This document shows, in pieces, positions 3,294-64,000 of a stretch of DNA of 64,000 nucleotides (the stretch's first letter is position 1; every line of letters begins with the position of its first letter). Source of the DNA: Phoronis australis (lineage: Eukaryota; Animalia; Phoronida); assembly GCA_002633005.1 (NCBI GenBank), contig NMRA01000370.1, positions 382,470 to 446,469 of the forward strand, written 5' to 3'. The notes beneath the pieces are model-generated. The model worked only from the letters and a program-made list of their open reading frames with translations. It had not been told where the DNA came from and made no database searches. The position numbers and the translations under genes were made by a program.

Positions 3294-15747
<12,454 letters not shown>

Positions 15748-16677
15748 CTGAAAGATTAAAGCATAAACTACAGGGCATGGCCTAATACAACCTAACGCTA
15801 AAGCACTGGTCAGCTGCTACGAATTATCTACTACAAAACAGCAAAAAATATAACTGTGCCTGGAATGTCTGAACACAGGCCCATCGATGGATCTTCAGAA
15901 ACGACCTTTCTTAAAAAACGTCAATTGAAACCGAATGTACGCCAGGGCGTATTTTCGGAATTTGTGTCAAACATGCCATGGTGCAATTTTTGTTAAACAA
16001 ATATTAGTTGTGAAGATTTTTATGAAATAAATACGTCATTTTCAATGTATGTAGCTGTACCTCGCTAGTAAGAATTTTATTCCTCCATACACAATGCATT
16101 AAAATTGCCCTTCACACTGTGGTAACAGAACTATTCATTAGATTTTCATAACATGCAAACAATTACGTCCATGGGCATTCTTTTGGAAAACTTTCTGAAA
16201 ATACGCACATGGGTGTATTTTGAGTGCACCTATTTTCAGAAATTCCGAATACTAAACAAAAGCAACAATCAAAGACTCAATGCATCTGAAATTGTTTGAC
16301 ACAGGAGAACTTAATGCGTAAGGTGAAATCAACAAAGTAAAAAAGTAAATGACGTCAAAAACACAAAAATTGGTCTTTTTATGAATCTCGGAGTAGCCAC
16401 AGTGAATGACAGAAAAAGGTCTTGTGCAAGGTAAGGAAATTGGACCATGGCTATAAGACCCACGACACTCATTATAAAAGCTTGTGTGATCACGTGTCTC
16501 ACTTGTAACGCATGCGATATCTCAAATCAAGGCATGGTATGCAGACTGGTGCAATTGCACGGTAAGTTACTAAGCCAGCGATGATTAGGAACGTATGTGA
16601 GATGTCACACAAGACGAACGAGCATGTGACAGTGAATGAAATAAAATGTAAAGTGACGAGCGACGAACAATAAATCC

Positions 16678-16951
16678 AGGAGGCAGTGAGGCCTAGTGGG
16701 TTGAGTGTTCACCTCCTGTTCTGAAGGCCCGGGTTCAATTCCCACTGGAACCCACTGCTAAACCCATGTGAGCCCATTGCACTGATCACCTGGGACTATT
16801 TTTATGCTTTACTAAATAGTATACAGTTATATGCAAGCTGAGGAGCTAGCAACCTGACTCAAGGGCTTAGGAGTGTGACCGAGTGGGACTCAAACCCACG
16901 ACCTCGAGTAAAGAAAGCGGGCACCTATCACACTTGGTCACACTGCCTCCT
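16678..16951. mobile_element. Two convergent tRNA-derived SINE-like heads
   Basis: Plus strand: A-box aggcctagtgg and B-box ggttcaattcc. Minus strand: tgaccaagtgtg and ggtttgagtcc. Both heads begin aggaggcagtg. Confidence 0.55.
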
Positions 16952-17149
16952 CTAATAAGCTGAAAGCGTACCAAGATATTTTGAGAATATCAAATATACT
17001 CAACACCTGTAAAGTCTATTATATCAGAATCCTGGTCAAATTCAATTTTTCGAAAAATATTTGCAGCTTTTGTATCGCTCCGTTGTCCAAAATGAAACTT
17101 TAAAATTTGGCTGTAATGAGGCGTTTCCATCGTTTAGCATGGATTAGTA

Positions 17150-18420
17150 CAAAGTTACCAAAGTCCAAGCCAGCATCACTCTGCGGAATACATCTGACCA
17201 GGCCATCAGGGGATGCAGTATCCAGTCACGCACCGGAAGGAAGTGGTCCACCACTTTAGCGATCAGTGAAGCAGAGAGTCGGCTGAGGCACAGGCAGTTA
17301 GTAGGAACAGCTTGCCAGGGTAGGCAAGGGCTGGGCTACAAGACCGGTAAGCCAACAAGGGAAAGATCTAAAGACCCAGGCAGAGACAGAATAATCAGGG
17401 AGGTCAGATCATCAGAGAACGAAGAAAGGTACCCCGAGCAGTCCAGATGGGCCAACAGGGAGCATGGACCAAGTGGGACAAAGTCTTACAAAGGAAAGTC
17501 AAGTGGGCTGATTTGTGGAAGATGTCTCCTCTGAAAGCCAAATTCCTCATTAGATCTGTTTACGATGTACTGCCGACTTCCTGCAACCTTGCTACTTGGG
17601 GCCTTGCTGACAACACAAGCTGTATTCAGTGTGGACGCAGATGTACGTTAGAGCACATCCTATCATCTTGCAGCGTGTCCTTGGCATCAGGAAGGTACAC
17701 TTACCGACACAACCAGGTACTCAAAGTTTTTGCAAGGGTGTTGGTCGACGAGGTGAAGAGCAAACCGAAGCCGAGAAGCCACCGCGTCGAATTCATCAAT
17801 TTCATAAGAAGTGGTGATGAGGCGAGTAAAAGGAAGACCCCTGCGCAGAAAGGTATCCTGCACACAGCCAACGACTGGAGAGTGTTGGCAGACCTTTCCG
17901 GTCATCAGTCATTCTTCCCTCAACACATTGTCCAGACGACCCGGCGCCCTGACTTGGTTATATACTCGGACAGTTCCCACCAGGTCATCTTAATTGAGCT
18001 CACTATCCCGTGGCAGAGTAGGGTGGAAGAGGCACACGAGCGAAAGAACTTGAAGTAAAAGCAGACCTTAGGAATGATTGTCATGTTAACGGCTAGAGAT
18101 GTTGGAGTTTTCCTGTGGAGGTCGGCTGCCGGGGTTTTCCAGCCAGTTCGATCATTACCATGGCGAGGTGTCTTGGCGTCTCAGTGTCGGGAAAGAAGGC
18201 TCTGCTACGCGACGCAGCCACTGAAGCTGAACAGGCATCTTGTTGGATTTGGATTAAATACCAACAGCAACACCACCAACAACCGTCAGACAGAGCCTGA
18301 TCAACTCTGTTGTCTCGCCTACTAGAGATGGTCTTGGTTTAGGGACGAAACCATTAAGGACAGTAGGAGACCAACTGAAGATGGCGGTTGAGCACTGTTC
18401 CATCAAGTGTTTAAAGTAAG
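17150..18420 (+). mobile_element. 5'-truncated non-LTR retrotransposon with restriction-like endonuclease (R2/HERO-like)
   Basis: GRKW...AESRLRHRQLVG...GLG; QQGAWTKW; CCHC CIQC...HILSSC; RYTYRHNQVL; RPDL...IELTIPW; EVGCRGF; frameshifts and stops. Confidence 0.9.
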
Positions 18421-19285
18421 TTCGACAGAGATATGTACGCTGAATTGATGAAGGTCCCTGCGAAACAACGCCTGAAGAAGGGTTCCATACCGTTGCTGTT
18501 GATTCCCGGCAGTGCCCCGTCGCCAGCCCCGAGAAGTGCATTTTTGAAGTGAGAAGCCTTGCGAGCTGTGGCCACTATAAACAGTGACTGGAAGCACTTC
18601 ATCTACTGTCACCCATGCCTCCGAATGTACCCAATAGCGTGCAATTCCAGGAACTAGCAGTGATTCCCCGTATGCTGTTGTCTCTAGCCCAGAGCCTGTA
18701 AGCAGCCCTGTAGCGATGTTGAGTAGTGGGAGTGAATACAGGCCCAGTTTGGCACCCAGTGAAAAGGACAGTTCGTCATCCAATGAACAGATCGGTGAGT
18801 CTAAGTTTGATAAGTTTATTGTGGATTTGTATTGGAGCTATTTAGAAGGTGCCACGTGTGTGACGAGGGAGTCGCACGGCGGGATGTAAGCAGTTTGGGT
18901 GCTCAAGTCACCATCCACTGGAAGTGTGTCGCGGGACACTCGGGTCAGTGGGACAGTTCTTCCTCTGTACGTGAGACGATAATGAGTACTTCTCGGTAGG
19001 CAGCAACAGCGTGGCATGTTGTCTGACTCGTAAACAAAAGCAAACGACGACCGAACTTATCACAACCGAGGTAGAACAATGACTGACTCGACTGCTCTCA
19101 TAGTCGGACTGTATGAAAAGAAATTGGCGCGAAATTCTTGCCTCCCAAAATGTCACTTCCGGAGTAGATGACGAGTAATTAATTAAATTACGAAAAGCTG
19201 TAAATAAGTGAAAAGTATGACTGTTATAATCAACGAACCCTATTTTTGCTGAAAATGACATGAAAAAGGTTGCCTTCGCCTTTAA
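18421..19285 (+). mobile_element. Kolobok element D, right half (THAP C-terminus, transposase N-terminal relic, long inverted terminus)
   Basis: FDRDMYAELM...RLKKGSIP (THAP end); KFIV..LELFRRCHVC and GAQVTIHWKCVAGHSGQWDSS resemble Kolobok transposase motifs; terminus ggttgccttcgcct-TTAA. Confidence 0.75.
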
Positions 19286-19623
19286 TGCATGAGGGCGTAC
19301 AAACTAATGAATACACAGAAGTGTCTAGAGTTCATGTCTTAGCTCATTTCGGTGCCTGTGAACGTGAGACAGTGGTTCAGATACCATAGTTACTCTTCTA
19401 ATTTGTCACTTTAATGTTGTATAAGAAGAATTGTTAAAAAATAGCAACTCATGTATATAGCATGCACGACACAAGAGGAGGCTCAGCACAGGCAGTCCTA
19501 CCGTAACACATTACCTAGGTGTGCACATGCACAGTGCTATTTGGGATTCTAATTGGGGCAAGTGATTTTTTTGTTCGGGCAAGTAAAAGTTTCAATTACT
19601 TAAAAAGTTAATGTTGAGCCCTG
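19286..19623. mobile_element. hAT-like element C, right end
   Basis: Ends gttaatgttgagccctg, followed by tagag; matches left end cagggctcaacactaac at 61712, which is preceded by tagag. Confidence 0.75.
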
Positions 19624-19785
19624 TAGAGCAATTATCGAACAAAAGAGCGCAGGCTCTCCAACCATGAATGCCAGAATGGAGTTAATCAGTCGTGTAAGAT
19701 ATTGGCTATGGGGGGTTAACTTCCCAACTTATTGTTGGGCTATAGAATCGAACAAGTTGGGAGCAAACGGGATGTCGCTGTCATG

Positions 19786-20711
19786 TGAGCTCATGCTAAT
19801 TTAAGTGTTTGCTGGCAAAAACTGTTGTGAAACAACTCAGTTGATTTCCATCCCACGGCCTGGTGTTAGGGAGTCTTTATTTACATTTACATTATTAAAA
19901 TAATGATTGTCAGTGTACAACTTCTGCCCTGACGGTGCTGTGGCCAAAGCGGAACCTGTCAGCTGGGAATTCGTGGCCCTCGACGTGTAAGTAGATTTGC
20001 AGTTTCGTGGGTAATTCACCAGCATAATCACGTGCACATTACTTTGGCTCACTAGTATTTTCTTGGCTGAAAATTTAGTTTCCAACTTTCGCTGGTTTAT
20101 GTTCGTGATGTCTGATCAGTTTCCGAGCCACTGGCTGGCGGGATAACGAGCCAATCCACCGGCTGGCCGGCCGCTGGGACGGGCCTGATCGTGCTCCGAG
20201 CCACTGGCCAGGATAACAAGGGTTTTGTGTGTTTAGAACTCAAAGAATCACAAGTCTAAACAACACAGATCTAGGTTCTCCTGTCTGTATCTCATGGAAA
20301 ATACTTCGAATTTATCTCCGAACACACCCCAAACTTCTGCTACGGACCATATATTGGCCTGCCGAACTTTGTAGGCTACGGTGTGTCCAAATACCAACAA
20401 ATCCATAACAGCAAAATAAAACAACAACACGTTTTTATTAGAGCTCGGTGCATTTTTAAGGGTTTTACATTGAAGTTTGATGATTTATTGATGTTAAACG
20501 ATGAGTTCAAGCGATAAGCTGACACCAGTAACCCGTGTTGTGAACTGCTGAACAGACTGCGTGTGAAACCGATGACGTCATTGGATAATTTCAACACCTC
20601 CGTCTGCCATCAGGTGTCAGGTAACGCAACCGTACTTGGCTATATGGAGTAGAACTACTCGATCTAAATTGATACAAATTAGGTTGTTTTTTGGGTGGCA
20701 TGCTCCTTTAA
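19786..20711 (-). mobile_element. Kolobok family A, terminal arm
   Basis: Reverse-complement similar to 32958-~33845; terminus gggtggcatgctcct-TTAA. Confidence 0.8.
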
Positions 20712-20974
20712 TGATAGTATCAGATTTGGTACACTGTTGACTGGTTTTTAGAAGTTGTACTTTAGAGTTTCATTTAATCTTGTAGCTATAGTATCAGTTG
20801 TTGAAAATAAATAAGAATATGCTAGTAATAGTCTTATTTGTCTTCTAGCTGTTTCTAATTGTATTTTGACCTGTTTTGTGTCAGTTATGTTGCTGGCTAT
20901 GTCTTATCATTAATGTTTAACTTTCAATTAATATATTTAAGAAGCCATTTGTATACAGTATTTTTTCCTTTTAG

Positions 20975-47598
<26,624 letters not shown>

Positions 47599-48073
47599 AA
47601 TGGTCAAATGTTGCCTGCTTGCTAGAACTTAGCACTCAAGTACTACGTTTACACATCAGGTTGATTTGCAGAATGATCTACAAATAGCATGCTGATAACA
47701 TGCTAGTTAATATTACTTGAGTGATTCACTGGATGGTGACAGATCTCAGGGTGCAGGTTGCTAAGCAGCCAGCAGCCCCAAAGTTCTGAAGCCTTGGCTG
47801 GTGCATTTTTACTATCGGGATCCTCTGCAGTTATTTGGTAATGTGATATTGTCAAACTGATGAAATTTGTATGGTGAAAATACTTTGTACCTGAGTATGT
47901 GATATGGAGTCTGGGAGACGGCACATTTCATTGTGTTATGAATTGCCAGTAACACCCCTAAAGATTTATACCAGCTTTATAAGCACACAGTCATCTGCAT
48001 CACTGACAGCATCATGATTTTTCTCATTAATTTTATCAACATCGTCATCTAGCCTATTGATTGGAGTATCTTT

Positions 48074-48213
48074 TGTATTTCTGAATATGCTAAAATGTAT
48101 TTCTGAATATGCTAAAATGTATTTCTGAATATGCTAAAATGTATTTCTGAATATGCTAAAATGTATTTCTGAATATGCTAAAATGTATTTCTGAATATGC
48201 TAAAATGTATTTC
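48074..48213. repeat. 22-bp tandem repeat x6 in the probable IRE1 3' UTR
   Basis: tgtatttctgaatatgctaaaa. Confidence 0.9.
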
Positions 48214-50459
48214 ACTTTGCAATCTGTAGTAGATCGTGATCAAATTTTTTGTTGTACTAGGTTTTGAAAGGTTGAGGGTTTACGTTCATTTGTTGTCTCA
48301 TAAACTGTATCATAGATGACTTTATATCTGATAGTAACTTGGTTTATGTTTCAATAACATGCTGTGTTTGTGCCTATTGTGCATTGTATGGCCTACTTAA
48401 AATGTGGATTAAGTCACTTGCGTTGTTTGCATTTATTGTTTTTATGTTAAAATAGTGAGTTGTTCATACGGTTTAAAAATGAATCATCTTACAACAACTT
48501 TTTTATTTTCACTTTGCATTTAACATATCATCCTATGTGGTCAGAATTAAGATATACAGTTATGCATATAAAGTGGCCAAATTCAAACAAGAATGAATGA
48601 ACTTTATAATATAGATACTATCTGTATAACTAATCGAAACTGCTTTCCGTGGATGCTAGAATTTCATGAGTAAAGCATGTGTAGTCATATGCTTTGCTTG
48701 CAATGCATGGGGGTGAAGTCTTGCGAGATCTTAGACATACGTTTCGTAGGGTTTATCGTGTCATGGTACGCTGTCCAGAATTCCACTTGACTCATAGTAA
48801 AATTAGGAGTTGTGTGAAGTGTTGGCATTTAATGACTGGCTGTGTGTGGCTTGGAGTCACAATGACTAGGAAGTAATACACTGTCAATCTCATTTTAGAT
48901 TGTCTTTGAAAAGATTTTGGGATTTTTATAACATTTATTCTTTGACTAAAATAAAATACTGTGGAGCAAAATTCACCGAAGAATTTTAATCAGCAGTTCA
49001 CATGTTAGCTCCTTGTTTTATTAACACAAAATGATGGACATGGGCAGCTATAGCCCCCAGTTTTTTCAGTGCTGCGCCGCCCATGATGGAGTAGCTTAAA
49101 TTTAACTTGTGTGTTGAATAGTACACAGAATGAGTCTCATGGCAGTTTAATGAACAACAGGAGAATTCTTGCCGCACTAGTACACATTATTTTGAGCTTG
49201 GTTGGTAACTAGATTGAATAGTAGCTTAGAATTTTGCGGATGGTTGTAAGTCGTGGGTGACATGTTCTGACATCTGATTGGTTTGTGAGCTGAAAGTCAT
49301 CATCCATAACCAATAAAATGTTGAGGAAGCCCGCTGGAAAGGCATTCAAGTGTAGTCTATGTGAGATGGATAATCATTACATTCTTGGTGTTCAGTAAAA
49401 CTGATGTGTTCCAAAACTTTTGTAGCCAAAGTTATAGATTATTGAAAATGTTTCAGAATTGTTCATATTGTGAGAAATGAGTTTTTTTTTATTGGGAATT
49501 GACAGCATAATGAACAGACAGGTCTTACAGTTTTCTCTAGAATGCATCCACCCGGAAATTTTAACTCAAAAATGTTTGTGTCTCTCTCTGTTATGAATTC
49601 GTAGTTGTTAACGTTCGGTAGTGAAAAGATTGGGACATCTTGATCTTGGATGCCCAATTTCCATGTAAAATCTGGTAACAACATGCTTTTATTTATTAAT
49701 TGTACCTTTGCAATGGCAATGGAGGAGTTGTGTGGAAAAGCACAAAGGTAAATAGCGAAGTGTGTGATCACCATCAGATATGTTAGGATATTCTGATACT
49801 GTTGCAGGACATTCTGATACTGTTGTAGGACTTGGGATGAGGCTTCAAAAATTGAAACTTGTCAGCTTGATGCTGAATTAGATATATGGTACTAGGTATT
49901 ATTCAAGCTTGTGCTAAATTTACCTTATAAAGTCATCATTGTCATCAGTTTTCTACTTTGAACCATTTTGTGTTTGGTGAAAAGCTCATAACTTTGTGTT
50001 CAGAAGGCTTTTTTCTATTTGCAGACTTCTTCATAAAATGTTGCAGACTATTTTTTTAGAGTGAGCTGCCATTCATTTATTTCAAAACACAACACTGTTT
50101 TGCAAATTCTATTTCCCCTTGCTTGATGATTCATTTGTTGCCAGGGTATATGTTTTGTATTCCTTTGATGTGACTACGTCATGCACAGTCCCATACTGTT
50201 GTAGTTTGCTTTAAGTCATAACACAGAAGCTATTAGTCAATTGATATGGTTTATGAACTCGTGTATCTGCACACGTCATATTGTAAATTGTTGAACACAC
50301 TTCTCTTAAGAAGCTACACTACATCAAGTTATATGTACTATTCATGTTCATTTCATGAAACTGTCTTGAAAGGTATAAACATTTTAATTTGTAGAAGTCA
50401 TCTCAGTTGTATTGTGTATTTATTTATGGGATGAGGGTTTGTGCATTCTATTTAGTGTT

Positions 50460-51645
50460 TTGGATTAAAAATGCAATAAATACTGTATAAAGAAATCAAT
50501 CATTGTCTTTGTATTTTACAAAGAAATATACTATTCCATTGTGCACTACCTGAGTGACCAGATGCAGTATAATTAAGCTGACATTGCTCAGCTTGTGGTG
50601 GTCATTATGCACATGGTGGCTGCAATTGACTTCACAGGTTCTGCAGAGTCATGTGGCTTAAAGACATCTGATTGGTCTGTTGGTCGGACATTGTCATCGA
50701 AAACTAATCAGATATTTTAGCCGTTGACCCAACAGAAACAGCAAAATCAGACAAGTGTACCCAACATATTATTTCAAGTTGGCACTTCCTGTGACCGAGA
50801 GCCATACTGAACTATTTTTATTGACGTTGGAAGTGGCATGCATATTGCATTGAAATGTATTTGGATAATCATGCTGCCGGTAGAGAGCTTGGCATGCAAA
50901 AANACATGGTGAACAGAGACACCTGGTGGCTGCCAAAAGTATTGCTCACAGGCTACTTTAGTTTTTGACAATATTGGACAAGACAACTAGTTCTTGTCTG
51001 TCAATCATCTAAGTTCTTAACAGGTCCTCCTGGAGGCAATTTGTTTGCAAGTATTGGATTTTATATTTCAACCTATAAAAATAATTAAAAAATTATGGGT
51101 CATGGGTTGGAGAAATAAATGAAAAATATGGGCGGTGGGTACGAAATAAAAGTGCCTTCCCCCCCTCCCATACAGATTTTGCTGGAACAGCCCTTATTGC
51201 TTTGGATTAAAAATGCAATAAATACTGTAAAGAAATCAATCATTGTCTTTGTATTTTACAAAGAAATATACTATTCCACTGTGCACTACCTGAGTGACCA
51301 GATGCAGTATAATTAAGCTGACATTGCTCAGCTTGTGGTGGTCATTTTTTTATGCACATTGTGGCTGCAATTGACTTCACAGGTTCTGCAGTCATGTGGC
51401 TTAAAGACATCTGATTGGTCTGTTGGTCTGACATTGTCATCGAAAACTAATCAGATATTTTAGCCGTTGACCCAACAGAAACAGCAAAATTAGACAAGTG
51501 TACCCAACATATTATTTCAAGTTGGCACTTCCTGTGACCAAGAGCCATACTGAACTATTTTTATTGACGTTGGAAGTGGCATGCATATTGCATTGAAATG
51601 TATTTGGATAATCATGCTGCCGGTAGAGGGCTTGGCATGCAAAAA
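50460..51645. other. Haplotype-overlap duplication around the n at 50903
   Basis: 50460-50902 nearly identical to ~51200-51645; second copy preceded by a MITE end (ggaacagccctta). Confidence 0.75.
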
Positions 51646-54600
51646 GGCTGACCCATAAAGGCTTATTGTGTTGAGGAATTGGGCGGCACACCACAGGGGG
51701 CCGGAGGGGGGCTATAGCCCCACATATTTCTTGCTCCGCACCCATTGGATATGGGCGGCACACCATAGTGGGCTGGGCTGGGGGCTATAGCCCACCTCCC
51801 CATGTTGATTAGAATAGCTCCCTGGTGACCAGACACTCTTACAGACTCATATATCACTGCTGAGCATGCATAGTTTCTTTTCTCTCCCCTCCACATTTCA
51901 TAGTGTGTAGTTTGTAGGCGTGTGTTTTGTACTGAGCTCACCCATATAGTCACGTTATGGCCTAAATCAACACCCCACAAGTATTCCACTCATGTGTTGC
52001 CCCGCCCAGATGTTTAACAGTCTTTTGTTTTTCCTTTAGTGAGTTACCCAAACTCTTCAGAGTACGAAAGGCACTTTAGTAGTCGGGATTTAGCTTTAGT
52101 CCTAAAAAGTCCACCCATGCATACTGAGATACTCGAGTCTGCATATAGATTTCCATGTGGCCACCAAAAGCTACTGAGAAGTCAAACACTCTCCTCTTGT
52201 AGCCAGATAGCTAGCTGTGGATCACAGACACGGGGACTCAGTCTACACTGTTACTGAACATTAAAACACATAGCTTTTATTCAGCTTTGCACTACGGTTT
52301 CTCCCATGGAGGCATTAGCAACATACACCCACAGGCGTCCTCAGCTTCTGATCGTCCCCAATACACTACATATAATACTACAATCTAAAGACCTGTGGTC
52401 CGATTCCCAGTTGGGGTTCCTGATTTTTCTGTGTTTATTTGAGATGCGTAAGATTGTGAAAACATTGATCTAACTTGGGGAAAAAAGAATAATTCATATA
52501 ACCTCAAAGATTTTTGAGTAAATGACGAAATACTCTGAAAAATTAGGTTTCTGGTTTTTGCTATTTTTGAATTCATTTGTTACACCAATTTCATTTTTAG
52601 AATTGTTTTGAAATATTTTGGAACAAAAGAAATATTTTCACCGAACCATGGTAATTTTTTAAGTGTTTTGTCGTTTGAAAGTGGTTTGGTGACTCTCTAT
52701 CTTGTTTTAGCAATACAGTAAGCTATCTATTCCCAAATATAGTTGTCTAAACTTGATATTTTTTGTGGCCTGAAATTTTTGGGTGCTATTTGCTAAAAAA
52801 GGGCTATTTTTGAGGCTGTAATACTTAAATAACTCGAGAGCCACCTAAGCAATTTTAAAAAATATATATAAATGGCATGTCTAAAGCTACCATTTTAGAC
52901 TATTGAAGTGTTTCTGATGAAATTTGTATTTTGCTTTGCTCTGACAGCTACTTTTTGTAAAACAATACGCAAAGGGTGTTTTTGTATTCCTTCTCAGAAA
53001 TGTATGCAACACTGACTTTATGTAATGTTGTTATGTTTTTTCCTGTTTGTCATTGTAAAAATCAATTCCATTATATATTTGTGTTGTCATTTTTCACTTA
53101 ACAATTGTAAAGTAAGGCAGGGGAATCTCAGACCCCTGTTACTTACTCATTGGAACTGGGAAAATAAAGAAATGAAAAATGTCTAATTTGTGTGTGCTGT
53201 GCTATCTGATAACCACTAAAAATAAGGCTGACAGAACACCTTTCATAACCTAAGTCTTTCCCTCTCATGTTCTCTGTTTCAAATTTTGTGGTATTTTGTT
53301 TCAGTTGGTGGTTTTATTTCATGTTATAACTTTTTTCTTCTGCAGGCAAAAATATAGCACTTAAAATTGAATTCCCTTCACTAAGTATAAAGTACAAAAA
53401 CTTAATTTATAAAAAATGTACTATACAAGTTTCCTTTCCAACGTTGAATATCTGTTGGCGTCACAAAACCCTAAAGAAAATTACAGTGCCAACTGGTCCT
53501 TCAAAATTTTGACTTCTTCAATTCACTGGTTATCTCCACAACTCAATAGTGGAACTGATTCTGGTGTGAAAATTAAACATTCACGCTCAATGCAATACTG
53601 GAAATTAGCTCAGTTTTTTGTTAAAAAGCCATAGAAGAGACCTGGAGGAATGAGTTCACTTTCACAAAATCACGTTCCAGATACAACTCTTCGTTCCATA
53701 TTACTTTATAGATACTCTATGTATTTGTGACATTTAGAGGATGTTCAGACACTGAAAGAGAGAAATAGACATTAGGTCTTAATGAGCATGCCCACCTTCA
53801 TAATCATAAGTATCACTCGTCAAGAAGCTGTGGAGAATACATCAACTCAGTTGACATGGAGAGCATGATGTGCTGCTATTGAAAATATTGAGAGTCCCTT
53901 TTGATTACATTCTCGAAGCCCGTTTTGAATGAGCAGCAAACAGGGTCATGCTGCACTTGTTTGCGCGACATTCTTGTTACCCCCTCCATTTGTCAGTCTG
54001 CAGTATTTCACACCTGCTGTGTACCATTGCATATTTGATTAGCTAGTTTTTGCTCTATGGTGGTATTACTGTGTCATTTTATTTCCACTTGATGAAAAAA
54101 GTATTTTCAAAATATCGTTTGTCGTCTCTTGGTCAGTTTCTTTACCAATGTTCTGACGATACGAACGGAATGGAATAAAGATTGTGACAGCAACAAGTGT
54201 CATGTATCGAACCAATTTTGCATAGTCGTAGCTATGTTTAGAAGTTGCCTTACAATGTACTTTTGGTCTATGATAGTAGTGACAGCAATTTTTGACACAC
54301 AACTTTTTGACACTCAAGTTTTGCAAATGACATGTCAATGCCAGTTAGCCTTTGGCCCATCCCCGTGGAACAAAGCTGTGTGAATTACAAATATTTATTG
54401 TGTAACATTGTTACAATTTCATTTTTGTTGGTTAATACTTGTGCTTATGATTATGAGCTGATTTGTACGGTACTCAATTTAAACAACAAACATCAATACT
54501 AATTGCAACAAAAAATCAGCCGAAGACGTTTCTGGCGTTAATAACTCATATTTGTCAAAACATGTCTGAATTATCTTGTGAATGTTTTAAATGACATGAC

Positions 54601-55007
54601 AGAGAACAGTATACGCATTTTATTTTTACAAGTCTTAAAAACTCCAAAAAATCAAGCAATTCGACTCATTACTTTACCAAATCTTGAAACGAGGGAACGA
54701 GCGCTCCGTAAAACCGGAAGTTTTCTATCCTGCGTGTGCAGCGCCCTCTCATCGTTAGTGCTTATGTCCCGTGGCCCGCGACATGCGCAACGCGCTCTAA
54801 CGGAGTTGGCAGTCCCTATCTATAGTCTATGATGTAATTGCCTACATCACATGCTTCCCCAAGAATCTTGGTGAAGCATGTGATGTAGACAGTACCACTG
54901 TCTGAAATGGGCCAGGGCTACTGGCACAGACAGTGGTCATCCTGCCATATGCCAGAAGCTTTTAGGAAATTAATGGCTCGCACAGACTAAACCATCAGTC
55001 ATGTTGC

Positions 55008-55180
55008 TGTTGTACTAGTACTTAGTCACAGATTTACTAGTGTTGTGAGACACTATTTGTACTAGTACAGTCACAGGTTCACTAGTGTAGTGAGACACTA
55101 TTTGTACTAGTACACAGTCACAGGTTCACTGGTGTAATATTTGTACTAGTGCACAGTCACAGGTTCACTAGTGTAGTGAG
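55008..55180. repeat. Degenerate ~40-bp tandem repeat
   Basis: tgtactagtac...agtcacaggttcactagtgtag units. Confidence 0.7.
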
Positions 55181-56499
55181 GTTCGTGAGTCTCACTGCTG
55201 CGCTGGCCTTCTGCTGCACACCTTCCCCCCAGTCGGCATTGAAAGACGACTGTTGTTTGTTTTGGAAACTGCTGACATTGGTTGTCCAGGCCCATATGCA
55301 GGTGGTGGCCATTAAGGGCACAATATGAATGTTCAGGGTCCCTCAGCAGCCGATACACGTGCTGGTGCAAAGGGCGGCACTTGACCTAGCAGCGTACATC
55401 CCAGGCATCCAAAGGGATGCCCTGGCAATAATCTAGATGCTAGACACCCTGGCAAGGACACCCAATGTATCATTTGGACGTTCATTGTCAATAAGAACCT
55501 TTCAAGTTAAGACACACACATTGTAATGATTACTAGGAAGCCCAGACGCATAGCTAAAAGAAGAAGTGAGCTCACTGTACTGGTTCTTTCTTCTAAGCAG
55601 GAAGAAATATACATCGTATATACGATGTTGCCATGTTCAAACTAGGTTTAAAACATTGCGTATCCAACACCTTTCAAGCATTTGCCCAGGTTTGGTTGTC
55701 AAAGTTTCTTCCACTGTTGACTATGCTCCCAGTGGTCTTATCTCCATAGTTCAAGACTTTATCTAGGAGTCATACCTTAGTGTAATTGCAAATTGATGTG
55801 TCAGAGCTGTTATTTCATGATTTTCATCTTTTCATAAAAATCAAAAGTGAAATAAGTGTCATTATTTCATTACTATAATGTGCCACGAGAATACGCCCAT
55901 TCAAAATTTTTTAGTTTGCGCTCGTTTCATGCTTTTCATTGTGCGTTTTAAGGTTTTAATATAGAACAGCAGTGACACCTGTTGCCAAAATATAAACCAT
56001 ACATCATATGTCCATCTTTCTTGTTTTGTGTTTGCAGCTCTAATGTCTCATTTTACAGAATACTAAAGCTAGTTTAGATGATATGACGAACTTTATAAGA
56101 TCAATTTGACTGGAGGTCACCAGAAACATAGTGCACTCATCGTTCAACCAATATCTCTAATATTTGTTTGGTAAGCTACTTGGCTGTGTTCGTAAATTTA
56201 GATGTAAAAGTCTTGGTCTACACATTTTTTGAGTAAAAAAGCTCACTACAGAGGGCTGTTTTGTAATTTTAGATGTAAAAATCTTGGTTTACGCATTCTT
56301 TTTTAAAAAGCTTACTATGTGTGGTGAACGGTCGTGGGGGTTTATGCATCGTCGAATCATGGACACCCTGGAATATTGGGAACCCTATTTTGGACACCCT
56401 ATTTTCAAATTCCTGGATAAAGACCTGCCTACTGACCACTGAACTGAACGGACATACACACAACTCCAGGAGCACCCTTAGTATTATTGCAAGAGGAGT

Positions 56500-56972
56500 G
56501 GCAGTCTAGCTGGGAAAGTTTGTCTGGTGAGGGGAGCTAGTTATTGTATTGATAAAGACATTGCTCTGCAGCTGGCTCATGGTAGGGCCACACTGTACAT
56601 TACAGGCTGCACCCACCAGTCCAAAGAAGGTTTATACATGTCCCTCTCCTGACTACTGCTGATGAAGTAAGCATCCGTGGTGGCCTGTATACTCGTCCAG
56701 TGGGATCACAGTAACCCTGACGATGTGAAGAAACTGTTAAACGAAATCGAGCAAGGTCAAAAAGGCATACTAGATGTTCTTGTCAACAATGCGTACTCAG
56801 GTGTTGATCCAATTTTTCAAGGCATAGGAAAGAAGTTTTACAAGAGCGATCTTGTTGAACTCTGGGATAGTATTTACAACATGAGGTTAAGAAAGCACAA
56901 TGTCTTTAGAGTTTATGCAGCTCTACAAATGGTGGCACAGAACAAGGGTTTCATAATAAACATCTCCTCCAT
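56500..56972 (+). pseudogene. DHRS1: DHRS1-like short-chain dehydrogenase processed pseudogene (N-terminal half)
   Basis: LAGKVCLVRGASYCIDKDIALQLA...TLYITG; frameshift and stop; GILDVLVNNAYSGV...WDSIYN.RLR.H...YAA..MV...KGFIINISS. Intronless; TGxxxGxG motif destroyed; 3'-truncated. Confidence 0.8.
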
Positions 56973-58969
56973 TTTATTTGATTAGAGGCAAAACGTAATG
57001 AAGAACTTAATTTATTCATTTATCTTTTGAAACAGGCCAATTCCTGTACCAGCCTTATAATCCACACTGCTCTAATAGAGTGGCCAAGCCAAGGCCATTA
57101 TAACTCATCCCTCTGTCCTGCCTCCTCTCCTAAACAGTGCAGAGTCTCACTGAGAGTACTTACAACATACGGCCAACCAGCTTCCACCAAGGTCCAGATT
57201 TGACGGGCACACTTCCTGAGTTTGAGATGTAAATATGAAGATGCCATTCGGGAAACTATCACATGGACTAACGCAGGACAAGTACAGTTTGAGCATAGAA
57301 GTACACTTCAGGAGACTAGTGTCTTTAATTTTTTTTAACTTACTTGGTTTTTTCCAACAATACATCTTTTCATTTGTCAACGATGCCATTTTGTCCAGGT
57401 ACAAGAGGTGCAATGCTGGCGCCCAAGTTTCAAGCTCTATAGCGAACCCTGGCAGATCACTAGTGCAGTGCGTTAGTAACTGGCTTACTCCTGAGGTCAT
57501 GGAGGTAACCTTGATTGTGATCTAAACATTTGCATGTTAGATATGCATAGTGATGCATTCATAACATGGATTAGATCACAATTTGGGTCACTAAATGAAG
57601 GACTATTAAAAAATTGTTGTTTGCAGGAGTATTTGTTTGAGTTGGAAGATTTAAAGACTCAAAGTACCTCCAAATGTGCCCATCTACACTTGAAAGGTAC
57701 ATATATAGAAATTTAACTTTGAATAGCTTAGCTACTTTTAAGCACAATTTGCAGAAATTCTTCCACTTCACAGGCTACATCAGGGTTAGGAAAATTACAT
57801 CGCCTATGGATGCTGTAGGTGTCCACCCACTGTAGCATATCCCTATAAAAAGTTAATAATTTCAACAAAAAAAATAACAATGAATGAAGCATGCATATAT
57901 AGGTAGTAGATTATGATTAGCACGTACCATGACACTAGAGACAATTTAGTTAACATAATGTGAACATAGCTATGGAAATTTGTCGAGGTTCACTTGGGGT
58001 TTCACTGCCGGTTGCCATCTTTAGGAAGTTGCACCAAATCACGCTAGATCAGGAACAAAAAGTCCCAGAGACACAAATCTTATTCCTCGTAATATCCTCC
58101 CGTTCTACATTTGTCAGCCATCAGGTCGCACACTCTGCTCAGTCTCTTGTTGTGGCCTAACTTGCATGATGCCAATTGACTTACTTTGTATGGTCATCGT
58201 GTGTGGTGAAAAAGTTAATGCTGACGAAAAACGTGGATTTGAATTCTTTGCTATTTCGATTGCTGTAGACATGTTTCATCTAGGATATGCATAGAACTAG
58301 AACGGATCATCAGTGAAGAAAGGAAGTGCTTTTCTAAGCGACAATTTTAATTTGAAGAGGTGAGAATCTCTTATTCTGTGACCGTACTTGGACTACCACC
58401 TGTTTAAAATTCATGGGAATGACATTTGTACAGAGACTGATTGGGAGCAATGTAGCCTCTCGTCAGCTAGCCGAGAGGCTACCTGTCGCTTGCATCAGGG
58501 TGTGTCATCGTCAAGCGATGGAGTTGCCAGCCAGCTAGTCTTGTACACTGGAAAATTTCTGCAAATTACAGTCACGTTACTTTGTACCATTTGAATTTCT
58601 TTCCTTCTCTTATTTGCGCGGCTTAAGTTTTGCACAGTTGGAAAATGTCAAAACAAAGCCCTATCTTTAACAAATCACAATTTAACTAATGTTATTAAAA
58701 TCTGAACACTTTATATTCAGCAGTTCATTCATCCACTTGGGACATCTCATACTGTTGTGAGGTGAAAAGGGTGATCTAGGTGAGCGTTATGTAACCCGGA
58801 GGCATTAGCTGGATAGAGAATTTCACCAACAATGGAGTAAAGTATTTTTACATTAGAACTAGATGAACTAAATTAATTGCTGTTAATTGGATCAGTTGAT
58901 TGCATTTTGTTAACAGATAGCAATTTTTGGTTATTTGGTTATTCAGTTAAATTCGCACACCCGTCAATC

Positions 58970-59099
58970 ACAAAGTCTGTATATTCAGTTTATTTTGGAC
59001 TTCCACTCTATGGGGGAAGTAGGTGGAGAAAAGATCACAAAGTATGTATATTCAGTTTATTTTGGACTTCCACTCAATGGGGAAGTAGGTGGAGAAAAG
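58970..59099. repeat. ~68-bp direct repeat x2
   Basis: caaagt(c/a)tgtatattcagtttattttggacttccactc...gtaggtggagaaaag. Confidence 0.85.
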
Positions 59100-59903
59100 G
59101 GCCGTCCCGGATTACACGACGATAGAACTTTCCTTTGTTTCGGAGGTAAGAAAGCGCATGACCTCATTTTGGAAATCAGGCACATTGTCGTGTCTCTTTT
59201 TTATGTTGTGAAGGTGAGGAATTTCACATCACGCATCCACGGGTGTTTTGTCCAGTTTATCAAACTTTTTCATGTCGGAGTTGCTGTGCGCAGCACAACA
59301 GTAGTACTTCGTTGAAGCTACTGAGAAAAACAACAAAGAGTAACATGTGAAACTTCAATGGCACGAGAACAAGGCACCAAATGTGCCTGGCGGATGTTTA
59401 TTGCATTGTGGATAAATACAGAGAGATTCAAATGTCACTGTGTAATGGCCCTATTAGATTAGCTAAAACAATACAAAAACACTTTGGCTTGGCCAAGATG
59501 AAGTGCTCGTTTTTGTTTTTTCTTTGTTATGTGCAGCTTGTGATTAGCGCTGTAAAGTCCATAGCCCTGTAATGTCCATGGCCCTGTAAAGTCCGTAGCC
59601 TCTCAAAACATGATGTGATTAGTTTTTTCATACAAATTCCTTCATAGAATGAAATTTGAATAAATCCATACGTTTAATGCACGGTAACACAACAGTTGTG
59701 TGTGGTACATTTAAACCATGCCTACCTTAACTTGTGCACAGTTAAAGAAGATTAGAGTTTATCCTTAAATACCCGTTTTTTTGTCTTATATCATATCATT
59801 AGGTAGAGGTGACACTAGTGATACTTTCTATGTCTAACAAAAACCCAATACATAATTTGATGACTCTGAAATGGCTGCATTATGTTAAAAAACAATTTGT
59901 AGG

Positions 59904-60037
<134 letters not shown>

Positions 60038-60279
60038 CATTAATTTCACGGATTTCATGACAATCCCGCGCTACAAAGAAAGCTGTCAGCTAGGAATTTT
60101 AGTTCTTTCCATGTAGTGGATCGCCTTAATGTCGTCCGATGCTTTCCTCGCAGCGTTACGTACTGGTCGAATAGAGATGATGATGATGATGCTTTCAAAA
60201 TCTGTCTTTTAGTCACCTCTGTAACCATCTGTGATGGATGTCTTGAGCAACAGGACTGGAGTTGTTGGCCAGATGAGTT

Positions 60280-60841
60280 TTAAGCTTGAATATAGTCATC
60301 GGAGGTACAGTGTACCTGCTGTTGGGCAGTAGAATCTCCAAAAGTGCATAAGTTGGTCGTTTCTCTAGGAGCGTGGTCAGTATCAACATTCAAGCGCTGG
60401 GCGGCTCTGACGGTTAGAAACGTTCGTTGCGAACCTTCATCAAATAAAACATTTACCTTAGTGTGACGCCCCTCTCTCTCAATGTTGGCAGCGGCAGTGT
60501 TCAACAAAACTGGCCCTGCTGTGAGTGCCAGGTTCACCTGGGCATTCGGAGTGGTGCTCGATGGTTGGCGGTTGGCGTGGGTTCGCTTTTTTTGGTTGGC
60601 TGGCGTGCAACCTATTGTCGGGCAGTTGCAGCTTGGGGCGTTGTACTCTCGGAGTCGGGTGTCTAGCAGGTGACGTGGTGGTGATCGGGGTCGGTGATAG
60701 TTTCTTGGTTTTGGCGAGAAATCTGGTCGCGTGGAAAATGGTCTCCAGCACAGTGGACATGAAGACATCGGTACTGATGATTTCGTCTTCTGTGGCATTC
60801 TCGCCATCAAGCAGGTTGATAATGCTGGCTGGTATCGAGCA
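60280..60841 (-). mobile_element. BEL/Pao LTR-retrotransposon gag-protease fragment (internally deleted)
   Basis: RVQRPKLQLP (gag-like); VLLNTA...VNVLFDEGSQRTFLT (Pao-type aspartic protease). Confidence 0.75.
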
Positions 60842-60842
60842 N

Positions 60843-61316
60843 GCTGTAAATAACAAGTATGAGGCCGTGAAACATCTCCGTGTCTGGCCAGCAGTCGTTG
60901 ACAGTGCCTGATGAATGCCGGCTTACCAAATAACTATCCTTACGTTCCGTTGTCTGAGCTTGTTCATGGCGCCTGTTCATCACTGTATTCCTGTTTGAAT
61001 TGATAGCCTGTGAAACTTAACGTTCCACCTGCGAAGTCTTCGTCGGGTTCGACTGATGAGCTCTCGTCTAAGTCACACGGGATTGCCGTTGCCATGTTGA
61101 TGTTTGTTACCGAGCATTCTGTTTCAAAATGAATTATTCTCACCTTAACCAATGCTTAGATAAAGCTTAAACAAAGTCTGCCTCATTAGATGCAATTTGT
61201 AATGCCTTTGGAGTGTTCGTGAGTGCAAATGATTTGAGAAGCCAGCAGTGAGTAAGTCACTGCCTTACTGGCTTTAGGTGCAATAAAACTAATTGATGGG
61301 ACACCGAGGCCGTGTG
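60843..61316 (-). mobile_element. Kolobok family A, internal part; continuation of 19786-20711
   Basis: Similar to ~33845-34330 (SFTGYQFKQEYSD; NNKYEAVKHLRV); breaks exactly where the 19786 arm resumes. Confidence 0.8.
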
Positions 61317-61711
61317 CATTACAGCGTTCTGTCGTTCGGTAAATTTTCCAGACATGAGGGGTGCTGGCTCTTTTGTTAACTGCCCAGCTCAGTCTTTTGT
61401 CCCGTATGATAACAAGCAGGCCAATTACCTCCCAGGCTTCAAAGGAAACCTATGGTGGTTGCAGGCTATTACTGAAGGCGTATTCAGAACACAGTCAAAC
61501 CCTGTGCATTGGTAATCCATTTGGACAGAATAGATTGTCTTAAATTCTGTTGTAGCTGGGCGGTTTTGGTGATTCAAAAACGGAACATAGTAAGCATTTG
61601 ACGAGGAATTCAGAAAGTCTATTGGTTTAAGCTCAAATATGTTAGAACTTAACTTTCATTTTTATCAGTCCAGCTCAGTCAGGCTTGATAGGATCTGATC
61701 GGAGATTAGAG

Positions 61712-62630
61712 CAGGGCTCAACACTAACGGTTGCCCGATTGCCCGTGTACATGTAGATTTTGCGCCGAGCAAGTGGAATTTGAAAAGTACTTGCCCGATG
61801 GGCAAGTTAAAAAGCTGGCTGCATAGGCAAGTAGATCCTAAGATTGTCTGCTCGACATTTGCTCCAAGCCTAAAAACCGTTGAAAAAGCCCATGTGGCTG
61901 TCAAAGAAACTCCCGTTTTCGAATGAGCACCGAAAGGAAAATAGAACGAGTGTGGTCAAATCCTTTCGATTCTCTGAACGTGCCCTGCAGTTTCTGAATA
62001 AGTTATCACGTGATACTACTGATTGTCTGCACTCTGGCAAAACGTCCAAACAAGGAAGCCGTCCAGGCCTGTACGGCATTGGTTTAGTTGCTAAAAACGA
62101 GTTCAGGATAGAATCAAAGCAACAATATGAAACGAAAAGAGTGCGGGAATGGGTTCCGTCATGGGAAATTAGGTTTCCTGGCCTGCGAGACAGTGAACAA
62201 GGGATAACGTGTGATTTTGCCGGCGTTTACCCACGTACAACTGGAAGCACTGCGTTCATTGGCGGATGTAAGTCATACAGATAAGCGCAAAAGCTAAAAA
62301 GTGAATGATTGACTACATATTTTCTACACTACACAGCAGTTTTAAAGGCCTCGTATTGATTCAGGTGGAATTCCAAAGTAAATTCTTATGAATTCCTGGC
62401 TCCCGGTGGCGACTCCCGAAAGAAGAGGAATACGTCTACAGGATTGTCGCTTTAAAGGGTGACTTTTTCGCGGTCTATCTATTTTTCAAAAATGTAATTA
62501 TTTATTGAAAATAAAAGTATATGTGGCATCATTTTATGTTAAAATTTGATTTTAATTTAATACAAGGTACCGATGACCAGATTTTTACGGATAGCAAAAA
62601 TTCAAATTCAGGTTAAGCAACAACTCAAGT
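61712..62630. mobile_element. hAT-like element C, left part
   Basis: tagag|cagggctcaacactaac; internal ttgccc/gggcaag subterminal motifs like those near 19555-19585. Confidence 0.7.
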
Positions 62631-63883
62631 TTAAAGGCGAAGGCAACCTTTTTACATGTCACGTTAAGCAAAAATAAGGTCTGTTGATTATCCTAAACAT
62701 ATTTTTTACTTAATTACAGCTTTTCGTAATTTAATTAATTTCTCGTCCTCTACTCCGGAAGTGACGTTTTAGGAGGCAATAATTTCATGCCAATTTTTCA
62801 TACAGTCAGACTGTGAGAGCAGTCAAGTCAGTCATTGTTCTACCTTGGATGTGATAAGTTCGGTCGTCGTTTGCTTTTGTTTACGAGTCAGTCAACATGC
62901 CGCACTGTTGCTGTGTACCAGGATGTACTCATTATCGTCTCACGTGCGCTTTGAGTACCTTGCATCGTTTCGGAAGCATTACACACTTCGCCGTACTTGG
63001 CTAGCTCGTTCGTGTGAAGAACGCAGTGCTACCCGTTCACGCAACATACAAAGCAGTGGCAAGCATTTTCAGCCGTCAGATTACAGCTTGCCAGGGTAGG
63101 CAAGGGCTGGGCNTTTCTACACTACACAGCAGTTTTAAAGGCCTCGTATTGATTCAGGTGGAATTCCAAAGTAAATTCTTATGAATTCCCGGCTCCCGGT
63201 GGCGACTCCCGAAAGAAGAGGAATACGTCTACAGGATTGTCGCTTTAAAGGGTGACTTTTTCGCGGTCTATTTTTCAAAAATGTAATTATTTATTGAAAA
63301 TAAAAGTATATGTGGCATCATTATATGTTAAAATTTGATTTTAATTTAATACAAGGTACCGATGACCAAAACTGTGCAAGATTTTTACGGATAGCAGAAA
63401 TTCAAATTCAGGTTAAGCAACAACTCAAGTTTAAAGGCGAAGGCAACCTTTTTACATGTCACGTTAAGCAAAAATAAGGTCTGTTGATTATCCTAAACAT
63501 ATTTTTCACTTAATTACAGCTTTTCGTAATTTAATTAATTTCTCGTCCTTTACTCCGGAAGTGACGTTTTAGGAGGCAATAATTTCGTGCCAATTTTTCA
63601 TATAGTCAGACTGTGAGAGCTGTCAAGTCAGTCATTGTTCTACCTCGGATGTGATAAGTTCAGTCGTCGTTTGCTTTTGTTTACGAGTCAGTCAACTTGC
63701 CGCACTGTTGCTGTGTACCAGAATGTACTCATTATCGTCTCACGTGCGCTTTGAGTACCTTGCATCGGTTTCGGAAGCATTACACACTTCGCCGTACTTG
63801 GCTAGCTCGTTCGTGTGAAGAACGCAGTGCTACCCGTTCACGCAACGTACAAAGCAGTGGCAAGCATTTTCAGCCGTCAGATT
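62631..63883 (+). mobile_element. Kolobok element D, left end with THAP N-terminus (two haplotype-like copies, starting 62631 and 63431, around the n at 63113)
   Basis: TTAA-aggcgaaggcaacc; (M)PHCCCVPEC...LHRF...RRTWL...KHFQPSD. Confidence 0.75.
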
Positions 63884-64000
63884 ACAGCTTGCCAGGGTAG
63901 GCAAGGGCTGGGCTACAAGACCGAAAGCCAGCAAGGGAAAGATCTAAAGACCCGGGCAGAGACAGAATAATCAGGGAGGTAAGATCATCAGAGAACGAAG
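63884..64000 (+). mobile_element. REL-type LINE (same family as 17150-18420), 5'-truncated, runs off the window
   Basis: Near-identical to 17307-17424, with a few substitutions and one indel. Confidence 0.9.

What the first reader, a model, noticed from the sequence alone, without database searches (positions are those of the whole stretch)
17307..64000. The ~46.6-kb IRE1 block is circularly permuted: its right end closes onto its own left end, inside a copine intron
Seen: the block is bounded by direct copies of one REL-LINE (17307 and 63884; offset 46,577 bp). Every transposon end opened at 60.8-64 kb is closed, in reverse order, at 18.4-20.7 kb. THAP 'KHFQPSD' (~63883) continues as 'FDRDMYAELM' (18421). 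The Kolobok D left end TTAA-aggcgaaggcaacc (63431) pairs with 19285. The hAT C TIR and TSD tagag (61707-61728) pair with 19607-19628. Element B termini cattacagcg/cgctgtcatg with a tg duplication pair 61317 with 19785. Kolobok A is broken at the same gccatgtg|agc site judged against the intact copy at 32958-34633. The 17.2-kb LINE has ~150 bp more 5' sequence and no Kolobok left flank, so it looks like a hybrid of two insertions. Inference: either (a) a circular IRE1-bearing intermediate integrated by LINE-LINE recombination into a copine intron, (b) a large tandem duplication, or (c) a repeat-induced misassembly. (c) is quite plausible given the n join at 60842.
Basis: partly seen in the sequence, partly recalled or inferred. 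Interest (0 to 1): 0.85.

Follow-up and report, generated by a model that had tools for sequence, protein, structure and literature searches.

The report
Misassembled transposon nest in IRE1 intron
A stack of nested transposons from the first intron of the IRE1 gene appears in two halves 42 kb apart, most likely because the genome assembly fused two copies of one retrotransposon and parked the leftover piece further along the scaffold, so this is likely an assembly error rather than a gene moved on a DNA circle.

Summary
The pairing is real. Four nested DNA transposons opened at 60.8-63.9 kb close in reverse order at 18.4-20.7 kb, and reads of intact family copies confirm two of the breaks. 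The LINEs at 17146 and 63884 are two different insertions. But no circle is closed by sequence. The only link from the IRE1 3' side back to the nest is the single N at 60842. It is the one of five such joins without overlapping ends, and 308 bp of the outer transposon is missing there. Contig depth shows no extra IRE1 copy (ratio 0.89 and 0.95 to copine). Both haplotypes seem to carry both LINE 5' junctions. RNA from three other samples splices IRE1 exon 2 to an upstream exon. The best candidate for that exon is 16447-16536, left of the LINE and in normal gene order (not proven). Verdict: repeat-fusion misassembly in a heterozygous scaffold (about 0.87). A real circle-mediated move is about 0.04. 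No long reads or whole genome were available. Side finding: the neighbouring copine lacks its C2A exons in the window and may be transcribed from an internal start.

The parts
3294..15747 (-). copine-8-like gene, 12 exons from the C2A-C2B linker to the stop; C2A exons absent from the window
   Evidence: open 427-codon chain, 285 of 411 identical to P0036 aa 135-549; C2A profile finds only cross-hits to the C2B exons (18 and 15 bits) against 33-52 bits for 5 of 5 control pieces
16300..16680 (.). promoter-like, CpG-rich stretch (CRE-type palindrome at 16350, E-box at 16491)
   Evidence: CpG observed/expected 0.99, against 0.11-0.28 in four 300-bp samples at IRE1 exons 2-4 and 0.52 over the whole IRE1 body; motif names recalled; function not tested
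16447..16536 (+). candidate IRE1 exon 1 (30 codons, signal-peptide-like, phase-0 donor); inferred, not proven
   Evidence: rank 6 of 345; open frame with exons 2-8; plus-strand RNA in bin 16063-16504
17146..18422 (+). 5'-truncated LINE with zinc-finger and REL-type end; hybrid of two insertions (5' junction of copy 1, 3' junction of copy 2)
   Evidence: zf-RVT E 1e-5, below the curated cut-off; start inferred from contigs ending at 17175
18423..19285 (+). Kolobok D (THAP-bearing), right half with TTAA
19286..19628 (+). element C, right half, terminal repeat and 5-bp duplication
19629..19785 (+). element B, right half
19786..20711 (-). Kolobok A', one half with its terminus and TTAA
   Evidence: 703 of 850 identical to the intact copy; flank joined to IRE1 intron in contigs 20686-22250
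20975..47598 (+). IRE1 exons 2 to last, in order
   Evidence: tblastn with P0001 and P0005; exons 2-3-4 spliced in 3 of 3 raw RNA runs
32959..34633 (+). intact Kolobok A copy used as yardstick
   Evidence: TTAA and matching termini on both sides
50452..51645 (.). tandem-allele overlap across N50903 at the probable IRE1 3' end
   Evidence: 439 of 447 identical; poly(A)-signal word at about 50476
60283..60840 (-). BEL/Pao-type protease fragment ending the contig left of the suspect join
   Evidence: DUF1758 E 3.6e-5, above cut-off
60842..60842 (.). single-N scaffold join without overlap; the only link that would close the 'circle'
60843..63883 (+). displaced left halves of the nest: Kolobok A' 60843-61316, B 61317-61706, C from 61712, D from 63435; 62321-63112 and 63114-63913 are two versions of one stretch
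   Evidence: 775 of 788 identical between versions; THAP E 1.7e-4, below cut-off
63884..64000 (+). 5' junction of LINE copy 2 inside THAP; the same junction also at 63083-63112

Best explanation
The window holds the two halves of one transposon nest 42 kb apart, most likely because the assembly fused two separate insertions of one LINE family and re-attached the excised piece at a single-N join. Shown: the halves belong together and to IRE1 intron 1; the two LINE 5' junctions differ; the join at 60842 has no sequence support. Inferred: the true order is left flank, LINE copy 1, unknown stretch, nest left half, LINE copy 2, nest right half, IRE1 exon 2. Copy 1's 5' end was joined to copy 2's 3' end, probably during scaffolding or gap filling. 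Two geometries remain. (i) Local collapse, about 0.55: both LINEs lie in IRE1 intron 1 at least 3.7 kb apart, exon 1 is 16447-16536, and IRE1 is in normal order beside or inside copine. (ii) Distant chimera, about 0.32: copy 1 lies in a copine intron unrelated to IRE1, and exon 1 is outside the window.
For: 4 of 5 single-N joins carry 175-788 bp near-identical duplicated ends, the tandem-allele error described in PMC7202002 (passages), so the scaffold mixes haplotypes. The fifth join, 60842, has none and lacks 308 bp of Kolobok A. Contig depth at IRE1 20925-22250 is 0.89 (X1) and 0.95 (X2) of five low-repeat copine bins. The THAP-LINE junction occurs in both versions of the nest, and the contig at 16776-17175 that differs from the window at 20 places also reaches into LINE copy 1, so both haplotypes seem to hold both insertions. 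RNA depth starts at the exon-2 acceptor, with 30, 5 and 10 read-bases over the 5 exon letters of that bin (about 6, 1, 2 reads) and none at 20720-20927. For geometry (i): the 16447-16536 candidate puts the conserved luminal motif at residue 44 (35-50 in 9 of 10 homologs; 1 not matched), sits in a CpG-rich stretch, and plus-strand RNA is 137 and 168 read-bases in bin 16063-16504 against 0 in the three bins to its left. The pattern matches 'collapse forces the intervening section out' in PMC2397507 (passages).
Against: No read or contig spans either LINE, so the fused join is neither shown false nor shown true. The exon-1 letters were not listed; the candidate gains only 6 bits over exon 2 alone, its donor is modest, such candidates arise about once per 7 kb in my scan (5 in about 35 kb of both strands), and its RNA bin also holds some repeat (2-2.5 times unique DNA depth). 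Two copies of a family with about 20-35 copies falling within 4-20 kb on one strand is unlikely under uniform insertion (0.0002-0.002 per copy, assumed genome 350-500 Mb), which counts against geometry (i). Why the piece was placed after 60841 is not explained. The tool warns that summed contig depth is no copy number. X1 and X2 are one sample and may be the source of the assembly. The RNA comes from other individuals and says nothing on this one's haplotypes.
Confidence: 0.87

Rival explanations
1. Real intronic deletion allele: recombination between the two nearby LINE copies deleted the nest's left half on one haplotype; the assembly shows that allele, and the intact allele's piece was appended at 60842.
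For: Gives exactly the left-flank/LINE/right-half join, would be harmless if exon 1 is at 16447-16536, and needs no dosage change at IRE1 exons.
Against: The left half with its LINE junction is present in two versions 98% alike, which suggests neither haplotype lost it.
Confidence: 0.05
2. Real circle-mediated move: IRE1 was excised as a circle and integrated into a copine intron by LINE-LINE recombination, as a balanced cut-and-paste or an old fixed event.
For: The order in the window is what such an event gives; copine's C2A exons are missing and its 32-nt exon keeps an acceptor; IRE1's 3' end is linked to 50904-60841 by a 447-bp overlap.
Against: No extra IRE1 dosage; the closing link is an unsupported N; no good exon 1 in 50904-64000 (best: 53025-53111 in a stretch with CpG ratio 0.0, and 59498-59551 with a negative donor score); conspecific RNA shows an upstream exon spliced to exon 2; described human cases have microhomology junctions, not long homology (PMC7450558, abstract).
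Confidence: 0.04
3. Tandem duplication of the IRE1 unit with the LINE at the unit boundary.
For: The middle of a tandem pair looks permuted and is bounded by direct LINE copies.
Against: Depth ratio 0.89 and 0.95 where 1.5-2 is expected; it does not explain the different left flank at 17146; IRE1 exons occur once in the window.
Confidence: 0.02

Closest known systems
Repeat collapse with excision of the intervening segment (mis-assembly class, PMC2397507, passages read)
   Same: Two same-strand repeat copies merged; the segment between them forced into separate contigs.
   Different: Here the copies differ in 5' truncation, the excised piece was re-attached in the same scaffold, and the mate-pair signature could not be examined.
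Tandem alleles at single-N gaps (PMC7202002, passages read)
   Same: 4 of 5 single-N joins have duplicated near-identical ends.
   Different: The join at 60842 has no duplicated ends, so it is not a tandem allele but an unsupported join.
Segmental duplication through circular DNA intermediates, A-B to B-A order (PMC7450558, abstract and outline read)
   Same: Reversed order of two parts of one locus.
   Different: No donor-plus-copy dosage, no sequenced circle junction, and the boundary is long LINE homology, not microhomology.
Kolobok DNA transposons (PMC9587614, passages read)
   Same: TTAA duplications with RR...YY termini in elements A and D.
   Different: No transposase was tested; copies here look non-autonomous or decayed. 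Labels for B (CACTA-like), C (hAT with 5-bp duplication) and the LINE clade are recalled, not tested.

Membership tests
Circular-intermediate duplication or translocation | Block order reversed relative to the intact locus | tested here: met
   In the assembly, the 5' half of the intron-1 nest follows the IRE1 3' end.
Circular-intermediate duplication or translocation | Intact donor plus derived copy (extra dosage) | tested here: not met
   Depth ratio 0.89 and 0.95 in two runs of one sample; soft measure, and a balanced move would escape it.
Circular-intermediate duplication or translocation | Sequenced junction that closes the circle inside the block | tested here: not met
   Only a single N without overlap at 60842; no convincing exon 1 in 50904-64000.
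Circular-intermediate duplication or translocation | Molecules spanning both integration junctions | not testable with these tools
   No long-read run among 8 listed; contigs stop about 30 bases inside the LINE.
Repeat collapse with excision (mis-assembly) | Two distinct same-strand repeat copies with different flanks | tested here: met
   5' junctions at 17146 and 63884, 113 of 118 identical.
Repeat collapse with excision (mis-assembly) | Intervening segment on separate contigs | tested here: met
   60843-63112 and 63114-64000 are set off by single Ns.
Repeat collapse with excision (mis-assembly) | [quoted passage not shown] | not testable with these tools
   DNA runs are held as contigs only.
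Repeat collapse with excision (mis-assembly) | Switch of copy-specific variants inside the merged repeat | tested here: inconclusive
   Only 118 bp of copy 2 is in the window; 5 differences there; family contigs cannot be phased.
Tandem allele at a single-N gap | Near-identical duplicated ends on both sides of the N | tested here: met
   4 of 5 joins (22869, 32594, 50903, 63113); not 60842.
Tandem duplication of IRE1 | Doubled depth and a second set of exons | tested here: not met
   sequence past 64000 not available.
Kolobok | TTAA duplication and RR...YY termini | tested here: met
   Element D and the intact A copy at both ends; A' at one end only.
Full-length copine | C2A domain exons | tested here: not met
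   None in the window; may lie outside it.

The most novel reading that the evidence does not exclude
The rearrangement is real and fixed: an IRE1 circle integrated into copine by LINE-LINE recombination, cut off copine's C2A exons, and IRE1 took a new signal-peptide exon and shared promoter from the copine intron, leaving an expressed single-C2 copine head to head with a rebuilt IRE1.
Probability: 0.04. Interest if true: 0.75.

Novelty: not a real feature. Interest (0 to 1): 0.12.

Why it matters
As an artefact it is a clean teaching case: nested transposon ends and their target duplications act as an internal ruler that exposes a mis-join without reads, and it warns that this scaffold's IRE1 and copine gene models need care. 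If it were real, it would be a rare germline gene move through a circle by homologous LINE recombination in an invertebrate. The side finding, a copine possibly expressed without C2A from a promoter shared with IRE1, would matter modestly for copine biology.

Tried and rejected
No whole genome is held, so sequence past 64000 could not be read. My first exon-1 candidate, 59498-59551, was dropped: donor score -2.5, the GT starts a 17-bp tandem repeat, rank 89 of 345. Laying RNA on 20720-22260 did not list the upstream exon's letters; X8 laid 0 records. In one search transposon reads crowded the tables (3902 loose ends and 245 joints not shown), so a 16536-20975 joint could be neither seen nor excluded. 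A protein search with exon 2 found nothing among 8 candidates. The representative-protein search and the atlas search with the exon-1 candidate did not complete (47, 53). No RNA holder was listed as holding the stretch; this is not used as evidence. Three look-ups of earlier findings returned nothing. No tRNA genes. A paper search for the scaffolder's single-N rule gave only a listing that I did not use; searches on C2A-less copines and on the LINE clade gave 2 and 1 listings, not read. The missing Kolobok A end was sought on both strands of the window and not found.
Full report
Setting. The window is an animal scaffold, 38% G+C, with two longer gaps and five single-N joins at 22869, 32594, 50903, 60842 and 63113. 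The best IRE1 hits are from a brachiopod, an annelid and molluscs at 60-70% identity. No whole genome is held. It carries a copine-8-like gene on the minus strand (3294-15747) and IRE1 on the plus strand (exons 2 to last, 20975-47598).

Observation. Kolobok D, element C, element B and Kolobok A each have one half at 60.8-63.9 kb and the other at 18.4-20.7 kb, in reverse nesting order, with matching terminal repeats and target duplications. Reads from intact family copies elsewhere in the genome bridge two of the breaks: loose ends before 18423 match 63855-63884 at 27 of 30 letters, and those before 19624 match 61677-61706 at 26 of 30 (counted by hand). Chance cannot give four coinciding break sites in nested order. 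So 60843-63883 belongs directly before 18423, in IRE1 intron 1, with a LINE inserted in the THAP region. The LINE at 17146 starts about 160 bp further 5' and has another flank, so it is a second insertion whose 5' end has been joined to the first one's 3' end.

What is not confirmed is the circle. A permuted circle needs continuous sequence from the IRE1 3' end round to exon 1 and the nest. The link at 50903 is supported by a 447-bp overlap. The link at 60842 is not: it is the only one of five single-N joins without duplicated ends, the left side is a BEL/Pao-type fragment, the right side starts inside Kolobok A, and 308 bp of that element is missing from the window. No convincing exon 1 lies in 50904-64000: 59498-59551 has a negative donor score and 53025-53111 lies in CpG-free sequence.

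Dosage. In two DNA runs of one sample, possibly the assembly's source, summed contig depth over three bins at IRE1 exons 2-4 is 0.89 and 0.95 of five low-repeat copine bins, which I chose from the 30 bins by low depth. The tool warns that this is no copy number, so I take it as soft evidence against a duplicate. The nest's left half appears in two versions, 775 of 788 identical, both with the THAP-LINE junction. A contig differing from the window at 20 places over 16776-17175 also enters LINE copy 1. Both haplotypes therefore seem to carry both insertions, which argues against a heterozygous deletion.

RNA. In 3 of 3 raw RNA runs from other samples (8, 5 and 13 reads laid; a fourth, contig-only run laid 0), exons 2-3-4 are spliced (4, 2, 5 and 2, 1, 5 reads). 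Depth begins at the acceptor 20975 and is zero over 20720-20927. An upstream exon is therefore spliced on, but its letters fell below the listing threshold. A scan for phase-0, signal-peptide-like first exons found 16447-16536, 600 bp left of the LINE. It ranks 6 of 345 on a profile of homolog N-termini; the four non-trivial ones above or level with it are IRE1's own transmembrane exon (twice), an IRE1 intron stretch and a neighbour at 16581. It reads openly into exons 2-8, lies in a CpG-rich stretch, and its bin has plus-strand RNA in both runs laid there while the three bins to its left have none. This is suggestive only: the gain is 6 bits, similar candidates occur about once per 7 kb, and the bin holds some repeat.

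Mechanism. Shown: split nest, hybrid LINE, unsupported join, haplotype-mixing scaffold. Inferred: two LINE copies were merged during assembly and the displaced piece was attached at 60842. This is the collapse-with-excision class of PMC2397507 (passages), in a scaffold that also shows the tandem-allele single-N error of PMC7202002 (passages). I put 0.87 on an artefact, split about 0.55 for a local collapse inside IRE1 intron 1 and 0.32 for a chimera between distant copies. Against the local form: two copies of a 20-35-copy family within 4-20 kb are unlikely under uniform insertion, although this intron is plainly an insertion hot spot, and it requires IRE1 to start 700 bp from a copine coding exon. 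Against both forms: nothing spans the LINE, and I cannot say why the piece was placed after 60841. These odds are my judgement.

Comparison. Real circle-mediated duplications show reversed block order, but with a donor copy and microhomology junctions (PMC7450558, abstract and outline). Here dosage and a sequenced closing junction were tested and not met. Elements A and D meet the Kolobok definition of TTAA duplication and RR...YY termini (PMC9587614, passages). The labels for B, C and the LINE clade are recalled. No supplements were consulted.

Side finding. The copine chain is open for 427 codons from the C2A-C2B linker, and its first methionine falls at the start of C2B. C2A exons are absent from the window. 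Copine-strand RNA covers 15763, 16 bases upstream of the 15747 acceptor (6 and 3 reads, against 15 and 6 at the next exon), and continues into the bin 16063-16504, while the intron bin 15179-15620 is empty. Either IRE1 is nested in a long copine intron and a shared promoter yields a short copine, or this copine has lost C2A, or it is intron retention. None of 14 homologs under 500 aa that I inspected clearly starts at C2B; one paper search gave two listings, not read.

Verdict. Observation partly confirmed; most likely not a real genomic feature; interest 0.12.

Noticed in passing
window 15716-16504 (-): Copine-strand RNA runs upstream of the 15747 acceptor to about 16.3-16.5 kb; with C2A exons absent, this may be a single-C2 copine transcript from a promoter shared with IRE1.
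   Followed up: partly
window 54600-54900: CpG-rich promoter-like stretch (ratio 1.12; ETS-type word at 54714; 26-bp hairpin at 54839-54891) with no gene assigned.
   Followed up: no
window 56671-56982 (+): Intronless short-chain dehydrogenase fragment (adh_short E 3e-8), probably a processed pseudogene piece.
   Followed up: partly
window 50904-51193: End of an insertion present in one allele only, near the IRE1 poly(A) region; looks like a DNA transposon terminus at a TTA site (family label not tested).
   Followed up: no
window 60283-60840 (-): BEL/Pao-type protease fragment (DUF1758), cut by the join at 60842.
   Followed up: partly
window 24243-25009: 31-bp tandem repeat beginning at the 3' end of an IRE1 exon and running through a 438-N gap.
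   Followed up: no
window 47599-50481: IRE1 3' UTR may be about 2.9 kb if the poly(A)-signal word near 50476 is used; not checked with RNA.
   Followed up: no
proteins P0001/P0036/P0082 and P0004/P0046: In two relatives, IRE1 and the listed copine-8 proteins lie on contigs of different length, a weak hint that the neighbourhood is not conserved.
   Followed up: no
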